64,000 nt of DNA from Octopus sinensis (Eukaryota). This document shows, one piece after another, positions 21,301-24,300 of the stretch; the stretch's first letter is position 1, and each line of letters opens with the position of its first letter. A model generated the notes under the pieces. The model was not told the origin of the DNA. It made no database searches and saw nothing but the letters and a program-made list of their open reading frames with translations. Position numbers and translations under genes: made by a program. The stretch is from NCBI RefSeq assembly GCF_006345805.1, contig NC_043005.1, positions 83,638,001 through 83,702,000 of the forward strand, in the 5' to 3' direction.

Positions 21301-24300
21301 TGTTAGACAGATGGAGTTTGAAAAGGTGCTCAGAGTTATTGTTTGTAAGATGGTTAATAACTTTATGGGTGTCTGCCAAGTCAGCTGCTAGACGTCGGAG
21401 TTTCAATGTATCCATGCCCAGGGATGTAAGGCATTCAGAATATGGCGAATACCTGATGGAAGGTATTCTCTTGGTTGCACGTAGCGGAATGGTTTCCAGA
21501 CGATTAATATCCTGGGCAAGATAGGGGTTCCAGACCGGTGATACAAATTCCAGGTGAGGCCACACCATAGTTATATAAAGCCGCAGATAGATAGCTGGAG
21601 AGCGGCTCACAAAGGACTTGGTAAATGATGTCAAAACACCTCCGGCCTTCTTGGCAATTTTAGCAATATGTTTTATCCAATGCAAATCGCTGTCGACAAT
21701 AATGCCCAGGTCACGTTCACAAGAAGACATTTTGAGATTAGTGTTGTGGAGGGAATAAGTAGACGCTGCGTTTTGTGGGGTTTTGCCCCCTCATCAGCAC
21801 CTATCTAACCCACACTTGCCTTTGATGAGTGCTGATGAAGGGTAAAACCCTACGAAATATGGCATATACACTCATTACCCATTTTTATTTTTAATCTTAT
21901 TGTTTGTTTACATCTGACATCTGGATACGAAACAAAATATCAGTGCTGGCTATAATTCCTGTAGAAATAACCTTAACAAAATAATGTAATGGCAGTGTCA
22001 TTAGGAAGAGATACCCAACCATCTAAACCATACCAAAGCAGATGTTGAAGCACTAATGCAGTCCTCCTTGGACTCACTGGATCTTGTCAAACCATCAAAT
22101 TTATGCCAGTAGGGAAGAAGAAGATGATGATGATGAGGGGGAGGAGGAGGAGGAGGAGGAGGAAGAGGATGATGATGAGGAGGAGGATGAGGATGAGGAG
22201 TAAAATAGGAACCAAAAGGGTCCACAGGTAAAAAATGGTTGAGAACAACTGCTCTAGGAGAAGAGAGCAATATTTCTTGCCCTATTTGCAATCGCTCAGC
22301 AATATTATATTCATCTGCATCGTATCTTAATTATTTGAAAGTATGTGCAGGGGACATACTATACAATTTTTGCTCTTCTAAAGAATATTTCATCTGGCTC
22401 TCTTGTCTCTCCCTAACAAGCAAACATTGACACACTTAACCTCATCCATTTATATCTACCAACCTTTTGGCGGGCACCCCTAGTTCTATGATACAAAACT
22501 GCATATTTTAAAGCGATCATAACTCAATCAAAACCATCCATCATAATTTTACGTAAGAATACATTTAAGTTCCAAACTGTAATATAATAATAATTTCTGA
22601 TCAAGGTAAAAGCAACTAAGGAGAGGGTTTGCCAATACTATCAACCCTAGTACTTGACAGATATTTTATTTTAAGGGCCCAAAAATGGAACTTGAAATCA
22701 GAAAGTCAAGAGTTGGAACAAATGCCCCAAGGCATTTTTCTGTTGCTAAAACAAATCTGCCAATCTCCTGCTTTGAAAACCAATACCATGTGATCATGTG
22801 ACCAACAAGACTATCAGATGTTGTTACACATTGCTGGTCACAATGCACTTTGCATTGTTTTAGCCTTCAAAAGATGCCACCCTGCTGGCTAGGCAAACAA
22901 GCCAACATTCCCTACTCCTCAATCAAAAGGGAGGCTAGAGCAATATGAAATGAAGTGTTTTGCTCAAGAACACAATGTGCTACCTGGTCTTGGAATTGAA
23001 CCCATGATATACCAATCGTGAGCACAACTACTTAACCACTAGGCCACATGCCTTCATGAAAACCAATAAAGTGATTTAAAAATTAGTTACTTTACAAAAT
23101 CTCTCCAAAGTCTTAATCAATTACAAACATTAATTGAAACTCATAGATAGATTATTTCATTAAGAAATACAAGTACAAAAATATTAAAAGAAGCCAGCTT
23201 GTACAAAACGCTTGATAAAAATATTTTCTTTTGTTTCTTTTCTTTACCTTCAAGTTAGCAGCTGCAGTCAAAACAGATTTGACAGCTCTCATACCGTAAT
23301 CATAATGATGTTGAGAAGAAAGCTGTTCTGAACATAAACGGTAAGTTGCAACAATCTTTACTGAGAGAGGTCGAGCATTGACAAATCCACAAGAGTAGAG
23401 AGAGATTTCTGCAATCATTGCATAGTCTGGCACCATCATAGCAACTGTACGGAACAATGCCTACAAAACATTCAATACATAATGGTTAAAAATCTCAGCA
23501 TGATTTTTAAGGGTCATGGTAAATATAACGTAGCGAAATCTAGAAAGGCACAACAAAGTCCAGCTATTCACAGTGAAGCCAGTTTTACACAGGAAAATCT
23601 AACAATATGCACCAAGGCTCAGCTAGTTTTAAATCACAAACTCCATTTAGCTTCGACCAGCCTGTAGTACTAATTATCCTGACTGATTTTTTTTAATAGT
23701 TAGAATAGTACTTGTGATGGTATACATATTAAATTTTGATAATTTCAGTTTGATCTTACAAAAAAAAATTAAAATTCAACATCTTTTAATTTGATGAATT
23801 AAAAGCTTGATTCTTTTCATTTTTAAAAATTAAGGACAGAATGCTATATGCACTTCTTCATATTTATATCTAAATGTAAAATACTCATTTAACTTAATAT
23901 ATTTATTTAAAAGAGCTTTAGATTAAAGTACCAGTGTGTATACATATTTACAATGTGTATTCTAAAGTGGAATAGTACTAACTATTAACAGTTTGTCTCA
24001 GAAAATTTTTCAAGATTTGTGTAGTAAAAACATAGGATTTAATTCAGAATGCCAGTGGATCATCAGACGCAATGTTTCAATCTAATTCTGTCTCCTCAGT
24101 GACAAATACCCTAAACATTTTATTAATTTTGATATAGAAATCAATAAACAAAACATTTAATGGTTTATATGAATGCAACCAGGCTTGGATTAAAATAGCC
24201 TTAAATTTAAAAAAAAGGCTTAAATTAACTATCAACACACCAAGCTAACATTGCAATGCTCTCTTTTATCACCACAGTCACATCCACACTTATCCACTAT

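What the first reader, a model, noticed from the sequence alone, without database searches (positions are those of the whole stretch)
21825..21875. Compact, near-canonical type I hammerhead ribozyme in a dynein intron
Seen: ATGAGTG(21825-31) pairs with CACTCAT(21869-75); core CTGATGA(21832-38); stem II AGGGT/ACCCT; GAAA(21854-57); stem III TATG-G-CATA; AUA triplet with a predicted cut after 21868. An inverted second copy lies about 30 nt upstream (minus strand GTG-CTGATGA-GGGGGCAAAACCCCAC-AAAA-CGC), with stem II pairing retained despite substitutions. Established: this architecture is typical of Penelope-like and retrozyme hammerheads. Inference: it belongs to a ribozyme-bearing palindromic mobile family that is probably unannotated in this genome. 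Caveat: a two-base 'AC' lies between stem II and GAAA.
Basis: partly seen in the sequence, partly recalled or inferred. Interest (0 to 1): 0.75.

Follow-up and report, generated by a model that had tools for sequence, protein, structure and literature searches.

The report
Fossil retrozyme hammerhead, antisense in dynein
The hammerhead-shaped sequence is real, but it is one decayed copy of an old, scattered, protein-free 401-base repeat that was likely pasted in by Penelope-type enzymes; it faces away from the dynein gene, so it is predicted not to cut that gene's RNA.

Summary
The motif at 21825-21875 is real and beyond chance (1 hit in the window; 2 of 200 shuffles). It is the ribozyme of a dispersed 401-nt non-coding repeat (37% GC) whose consensus closes on itself and has two subfamilies: an animal non-LTR retrozyme. 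The insertion spans 20462-21985 between an 11-bp target duplication, as two head-to-head arms. 43 of 85 loci are two-armed, 31 of those with one arm ending near unit position 240 and the other near 125, a Penelope-type footprint. This copy is a fossil. It is antisense to a DNAH7-like dynein intron, has lost its 5' part, and has three private stem II changes. No young copies were found; cleavage and circles are untested. This scan already reported younger retrozymes of the same build in this and another genome. Side lead: an intact sense copy just downstream of a cryptochrome gene.

The parts
20451..20461 (.). Left target-site duplication GTAATGACAGT
   Evidence: 10 of 11 letters match 21986-21996
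20462..20709 (-). Left arm, 3' part: stem III, cut site (between 20699 and 20698), unit positions 1-240 with the conserved hairpin (unit 152-223) and the long 3' end
   Evidence: 87% to family consensus over 252 nt, unit 390..240; matched by up to 29 of 29 other loci
20710..21066 (.). Later insertion 1: short high-copy repeat; Helitron-like ends are my recalled reading, not tested
   Evidence: other copies at 36568-36942, 46926-47116, 49077-49265 and others
21067..21770 (-). Later insertion 2: 5'-truncated 3' piece of a reverse-transcriptase (LINE-type) element; the CR1/L2 label is recalled
   Evidence: 173-codon frame 21269-21790; 24605 candidates, 150 scored, at 82-89% amino-acid identity; homologue L218 carries RVT_1, E 2.6e-24
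21771..21821 (-). Left arm, 5' part (unit 340..390): stem I 5' strand, core 21797-21791, stem II, AAAA in place of GAAA; broken hammerhead, sense to dynein
   Evidence: 86% over 51 nt; changes A371G and G387A
21821..21985 (+). Right arm (unit 353..~125): starts inside stem I, ends at the short 3' end
   Evidence: 87% over 178 nt
21823..21877 (+). Type I hammerhead: stem I 21823-31/21869-77; core 21832-38; stem II region 21839-53; GAAA 21854-57; stem III 21857-60/21864-67; predicted cut after 21868
21986..21996 (.). Right target-site duplication GTAATGGCAGT
19306..23247 (-). Host intron (GT..AG, 3942 nt) of an axonemal dynein heavy chain gene, between two AAA1-coding exons (23248-23460, and one starting at 19305)
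   Evidence: Pfam AAA_6 profile positions 157-234 and 229-307; best PDB match DNAH7, E 2.1e-39; junctions

Best explanation
This is a decayed, antisense copy of a dispersed 401-nt non-coding hammerhead repeat (an animal non-LTR retrozyme) that was likely inserted by a Penelope-like element's reverse transcriptase and GIY-YIG endonuclease, and it is predicted to be inert today. Shown: the self-closing unit with no reading frame over 49 codons, two subfamilies, two-armed insertions with two fixed 3' ends and random 5' ends, 9-13-bp target duplications, and autonomous RT plus GIY-YIG elements in the same genome. Inferred life cycle: a more-than-unit transcript was cut by the hammerheads (probably as a stem III dimer) and ligated to a circle by a host ligase (by analogy with PMC7229834). 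The Penelope-type enzyme nicked the target about 11 bp apart and primed cDNA at unit position ~240, just 3' of a conserved hairpin, and from the other end at ~125. The two cDNAs stopped at random places and were joined head to head. Afterwards the arms drifted to 80% identity and the left arm was split by two other elements.
For: Family: 54 matches from 40 scored of 375 candidates; 1971 and 2108 candidates with longer queries (lower bounds, not copy numbers). Consensus repeats at period 401; 31 of 64 loci have one continuous match longer than a unit, the longest 951 nt. 43 of 85 loci are outward-facing two-armed; 31 of 43 pair a ~240 end with a ~125 end, 0 pair two long ends, 1 pairs two short ends (bins chosen). 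Direct repeats scoring 7 or more flank 16 of those 31, against 115 of 930 mismatched pairs. Among 30 loci picked by the 3' part only, no 5' end falls in unit 1-20 and about half run through the cut site, so the template was not a linear cut monomer. Arms of one insertion share 19% of derived letters (101 of 526) against 9% between insertions. Second subfamily, 86% identical in consensus, has the same core and stem III. Stem II GGGG/CCCC becomes GGAG/CTCC (27 G-C, 17 A-T, 12 mixed; Fisher p 3e-5). The 3' hairpin has two more double changes (p 1e-9 and 8e-4). Whole-structure pairing 87.9%, 0 of 500 shuffles as high. The circular unit folds at -119 kcal/mol, z about -7. GIY-YIG: 5029 candidates, 147 matches; L086 has RVT_1 plus GIY-YIG. 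Inertness: antisense; stem I closing pair probability about 1e-17 when the left arm is in the transcript, 0.90 without it; three private stem II changes; best other copy only 86% identical to a near-consensus query.
Against: No autonomous partner with DNA similarity was found (30 GIY-YIG loci), so the Penelope link rests on insertion shape. The tail difference (~115 nt) is longer than the 30-40 bp given for Penelope elements (PMC8557442). Covariation was weak in the first alignment, mostly one subfamily (21 and 33 of 500 shuffles), and RNAalifold predicted no pairs. The compensatory changes are about three evolutionary events, so the Fisher values overstate them, and one could be double CpG decay. 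Two good copies match no Rfam hammerhead model. No long tandem array was seen. The extruded 'AC' is shared by both arms and by 8 of 85 other copies, so it was in the copied RNA and may be tolerated. 15 of 31 two-ended loci show no clear duplication. Cleavage, circles and expression were not measured.
Confidence: 0.85

Rival explanations
1. Same family, but the template was an uncut multimeric transcript from a tandem master locus rather than a circle.
For: Run-through of the cut site and more-than-unit copies fit this equally; amphibian hammerheads with weak stem III cleave poorly as monomers (PMC7229834).
Against: No long array and no shared upstream flank among the loci examined; strongly self-paired unit; circles are shown for coral, mussel and axolotl retrozymes (PMC7229834).
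Confidence: 0.25
2. The repeat is the pseudo-LTR of an autonomous Penelope-like element, and these are its 5'-truncated ends.
For: Same insertion anatomy; hammerheads lie in pLTRs (PMC4209133); PLE endonuclease fragments lie about 1 kb from L024 and L037.
Against: Upstream of the hammerhead comes the unit again, not an ORF. Ten PLE queries hit only 4 distinct places among 168 locus records (some duplicates). The L024 neighbour has its own 3' region, and unrelated sequence separates it from the unit. The PLEs examined carry different minimal hammerheads.
Confidence: 0.08
3. The copy is a working intronic ribozyme that regulates dynein pre-mRNA or an antisense RNA.
Against: Wrong strand for the pre-mRNA; the sense arm is broken; hairpin sequestration; divergence typical of the family (87%).
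Confidence: 0.03
4. A palindromic MITE or foldback DNA element in which the hammerhead look is incidental.
For: Long inverted repeat, -58 kcal/mol, z -8.
Against: Arms are unequal, their junction differs at every locus, 42 of 85 loci are not two-armed, and units are head-to-tail; compensatory changes in the ribozyme stems.
Confidence: 0.02

Closest known systems
Metazoan non-LTR retrozymes (Cervera and de la Pena 2020, PMC7229834; mussel units of 350-390 bp)
   Same: Short unit with one type I hammerhead, no ORF, GC under 50%, target duplications over 4 bp, strongly self-paired predicted RNA, Penelope-like elements in the same genome.
   Different: 401-412 nt; copies are mostly 0.3-1.6 units, not long arrays; all copies seen are old; two fixed 3' ends; expression and circles not shown.
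Penelope-like elements and their pLTR hammerheads (PMC4209133, PMC8557442)
   Same: 5' truncation, partial tandems, inverted 5'-truncated copy, extension at one end only, palindromic small helix III, an extra A after the core.
   Different: No RT or GIY-YIG ORF; longer stem I (about 40 bp predicted), 4-5 bp stem II, 9-nt stem III region instead of a minimal hammerhead; end extension ~115 nt instead of 30-40.
Vertebrate retrozymes as non-autonomous PLE derivatives (bioRxiv 10.64898/2026.07.22.740005)
   Same: Dispersed monomer-like copies, many intronic; most tested genomic copies did not cleave (8 of 9 in Xenopus).
   Different: That work links them to PLEs by co-occurrence and pLTR homology; here the link is insertion anatomy and no homologous pLTR was found; molluscs are not mentioned in its main text.

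Membership tests
Type I hammerhead ribozyme | Core C3-U4-G5-A6-N7-G8-A9 and G12-A13-A14-A15.1 | tested here: met
   21832-38 and 21854-57; same in both subfamily consensuses
Type I hammerhead ribozyme | U16.1-H17 cut site with open-ended stem I | tested here: met
   U21867, A21868; 9-bp stem I
Type I hammerhead ribozyme | Stem II closing next to A9 and G12 (10.1-11.1 pair) | tested here: not met
   This copy extrudes two bases before G12; the canonical register keeps 2 pairs and costs 12.3 kcal/mol. Met in the family: A-U in subfamily B, G-C after a bulged A (or A.C) in subfamily A
Type I hammerhead ribozyme | Stem III stable, or palindromic for dimer formation | tested here: met
   Hairpin +2.9, self-duplex -8.4 kcal/mol: dimer type
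Type I hammerhead ribozyme | Loop 1-loop 2 tertiary contact | not tested
   A 2-nt bulge in stem I and a CAAAAA-type loop 2 are present in the family; contacts not modelled
Type I hammerhead ribozyme | Match to an Rfam hammerhead model | tested here: not met
   None at gathering score in the window; none at E up to 10 for two good copies
Type I hammerhead ribozyme | Self-cleavage | not testable with these tools
   needs in vitro assay
Non-LTR retrozyme | Unit of about 150-450 bp with one type I hammerhead, head to tail | tested here: met
   Period 401; 31 of 64 loci with more than one unit in one match
Non-LTR retrozyme | No protein, GC under 50% | tested here: met
   Longest stop-free frame 49 codons, GC 37%
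Non-LTR retrozyme | Target duplication longer than 4 bp | tested here: met
   11 bp here; 16 of 31 against 115 of 930
Non-LTR retrozyme | Highly self-paired unit RNA | tested here: met
   In silico only: -119 kcal/mol, z about -7 against 60 doublet shuffles
Non-LTR retrozyme | Expressed as linear and circular RNA | tested here: inconclusive
   Only contigs of guessed-RNA runs were available; they cannot show ends, strand or circles
Penelope-like element (autonomous) | RT plus GIY-YIG ORF between pLTRs | tested here: not met
Penelope-like element (autonomous) | 5' truncation, partial tandem, inverted 5' copy, tail at one end | tested here: met
   tail ~115 nt rather than 30-40

The most novel reading that the evidence does not exclude
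This fossil family records how a Penelope-type enzyme copies an RNA circle: both ends of one staggered cut prime on the same 401-nt circle at two fixed points (~125 and ~240) that bracket a 72-nt hairpin kept by compensatory changes across two subfamilies. That hairpin would be the cis signal by which retrozymes recruit Penelope reverse transcriptase.
Probability: 0.35. Interest if true: 0.55.

Novelty: new member of a known kind. Interest (0 to 1): 0.25.

Why it matters
The site itself is most likely ordinary: a dead repeat copy. The family matters modestly. The papers read propose, but do not show, that Penelope-like elements mobilise animal retrozymes, and the two fixed ends, the target duplications and a conserved hairpin give a testable model of that step. 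Three searches listed no paper describing an octopus retrozyme; the giant squid genome paper counts 235 Rfam hammerhead 1 loci without analysis. The library is incomplete and supplements were not read. This scan has younger, better test cases in the same genome. The copy downstream of cryptochrome could matter more than this one if it lies in the 3' UTR and cleaves.

Tried and rejected
Rfam: nothing at threshold; only chance miRNA and snoRNA rows. RNAalifold on 60 copies gave no pairs. Stem II register could not be settled from the mostly one-subfamily alignment; adding the second subfamily settled it. The +8.7 kcal/mol value for this copy came from an off-by-one structure string and is discarded; one search replaces it. 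In one search the motif search landed on a different site, so its fold line is not used. PLE fragments beside L024 and L037 were rejected as neighbours. Sequencing runs: no RNA holder listed on record; 17 guessed-RNA contig sets held 14-19% of the words. Contigs laid on 19000-23520 pile on the high-copy repeats and show no splice joint or end at the cut site; this is no evidence either way. 'Goes back' joints on L054 fit tandem DNA copies as well as circles. The TATA-like word at unit 320 lies in the extended stem I, so I do not count it as a promoter. The core-like hit at 5275-5300 has no stem I partner and was not matched by the top hits. Pfam found nothing for the 173-codon frame itself, and the Atlas gave no result for it. 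Rows dropped: 60 of 85 family copies plus window entered alignment A1 as 59 plus 1; A2 and the Fisher tables used only ungapped 68-nt copies (54 rows; 37 plus 20).

Full report
Setting. The window is G000:C9:83638001-83702000 in a 2.7-Gb animal genome. That it is an octopus is my inference from recalled genome features and is not tested. An axonemal dynein heavy chain gene (best solved match DNAH7) runs on the minus strand. The site lies in a 3942-nt intron, 19306-23247, between two AAA1 exons. The intact motif is on the plus strand and so antisense to the pre-mRNA.

Observation. The letters are as described. The core alone is at chance (7 against 4.86), but the full descriptor finds only this site, with hits in 2 of 200 shuffles (descriptor relaxed to fit this copy). 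Stem I has 9 bp. Stem III cannot have the 1-nt loop given; it is a weak 4-bp hairpin or a -8.4 kcal/mol self-duplex, the dimer-type helix described for animal hammerheads (PMC4209133). No Rfam model reaches threshold.

The family. The stretch matches many other loci (54 matches from 40 scored of 375 candidates; about 2000 candidates with longer queries). A consensus of 30 long copies repeats at period 401 nt, about 412 with an 11-nt insert. It has 37% GC and no frame over 49 codons. Counting from the predicted cut as position 1, 3' ends cluster at 238-241 and at about 106-130, while 5' ends are scattered. Of 85 distinct loci, 43 are two arms joined head to head, and 31 of these pair one long end with one short end. 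Direct repeats flank 16 of those 31 against 115 of 930 mismatched controls. Copies average about 10% from consensus at non-CpG sites and 29% at CpG sites. No copy exceeded 86% identity to a near-consensus query, so the family looks extinct, though only 40 candidates were scored.

This locus. It is one such insertion, 20462-21985, between GTAATGACAGT and GTAATGGCAGT. The right arm starts at unit 353, inside stem I, and ends near 125. The left arm runs from unit 340 to 240 on the minus strand. It is split right after the GAAA position by 1.06 kb made of a short high-copy repeat and a LINE-type fragment. The arms are 80% identical over 171 nt. They share two substitutions and a 3-nt deletion, including the A of the extruded 'AC', so both were copied from one template that already had it; 8 of 85 other copies have it too. 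The plus arm then gained three private stem II changes, and the minus arm lost G12.

Was the ribozyme real? Probably in the masters. A second subfamily (30 loci; consensus 86% identical) keeps core and stem III unchanged and swaps one stem II pair from G-C to A-U (27 G-C, 17 A-T, 8 A-C, 4 G-T, 1 other of 57 ungapped copies). Its stem I changes keep pairing (87.9% of cells paired, 0 of 500 shuffles as high; cells with double changes, 4 of 500). A 72-nt hairpin just before the long 3' end has two more double changes. These are about three events, not dozens, and the control does not keep relatedness. Against: the first, mostly one-subfamily alignment gave weak support, RNAalifold gave none, and core conservation among copies is borderline (6.8% against 10.1%, p 0.055).

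Is this copy active? Unlikely. From recalled hammerhead biochemistry, an extra base after A9 is tolerated (also noted in PMC4209133), while I know of no support for two bases before G12; this is untested. Any plus-strand transcript that starts upstream pairs the two arms into a -58 kcal/mol hairpin in which stem I does not form. The dynein pre-mRNA carries only the reverse complement and the broken arm.

Mechanism. Shown: unit, ends, duplications, absence of an ORF, and thousands of GIY-YIG candidates with RT-endonuclease ORFs in the genome. Among 30 loci chosen by the 3' part alone, none has its 5' end within 20 nt after the cut and about half run through it. That excludes a linear cut monomer as template and leaves a circle or an uncut multimer. 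Inferred: cleavage, ligation to a circle, priming by a Penelope-type enzyme at two points from the two ends of a staggered cut, and head-to-head joining. No PLE with a homologous terminal repeat was found among 30 GIY-YIG loci. The young PLE family there carries a different minimal hammerhead, which I read as the U3-A8 variant described in PMC4209133.

Known context. Papers: PMC4209133, parts 1-2 of 4. PMC7229834, passages, parts 2 and 4 of 6 and section 14. PMC8557442, passages. bioRxiv 10.64898/2026.07.22.740005, parts 1-3 of 5 and a term search. PMC6962438, passages. No supplements were read; those of PMC4209133 and PMC7229834 could list cephalopod motifs. Earlier AI notes of this scan describe younger retrozyme families with the same two-ended build in this genome and another; none was found by this sequence. 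I had the unit, the end clusters and the duplications before reading them. The formal long/short pairing count came, and the wording 'priming from both broken ends' follows e1-8807236. They are not independent support.

Verdict. A real but fossil member of a known kind. Interest 0.25.

Noticed in passing
L053 / L201-L202 (G000:C4 about 23821655-23822423; ORF 23824515-23826206, minus): A two-armed family copy with intact core, stem I and a 4-bp stem II lies sense and 2.1-2.9 kb downstream of a 563-codon single-frame cryptochrome ORF. Contigs of three guessed-RNA runs from three studies, at depth 394, 146 and 25, run across its cut site. L053 fits 19 of 23 diagnostic letters, next best 16, and the loose ends of one contig match its flank. 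Four AATAAA words lie between stop and copy, so 3' UTR status is unproven.
   Followed up: partly
window about 5440-5690, plus strand: Copy of a different, abundant repeat (3033 candidates, 40 scored) carrying a Penelope-type minimal hammerhead; this copy has G12 changed to A.
   Followed up: partly
window 5275-5300, minus strand: Core plus a 4-5 bp stem II but no stem I partner; perhaps a decayed hammerhead, perhaps chance.
   Followed up: partly
L083, L085, L086, L095, L098-L101, L104-L108: A young RT-GIY-YIG family with ORFs up to about 780 codons carries a minimal hammerhead-like motif with a U3-A8-type core in its 3' region; Neptune clade is my reading from the Cys linker.
   Followed up: partly
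window 19629-20025, 20709-21066, 36568-36942, 46926-47116, 48623-49265: Short high-copy repeat with recalled Helitron-like ends, several copies in this gene.
   Followed up: no
window 16805-17224 (-), 29105-29945 (+), 40072-40605 (-): Other transposon-like frames (RT-like, mariner-like, LINE C-terminal-like by recalled motifs) in dynein introns.
   Followed up: no
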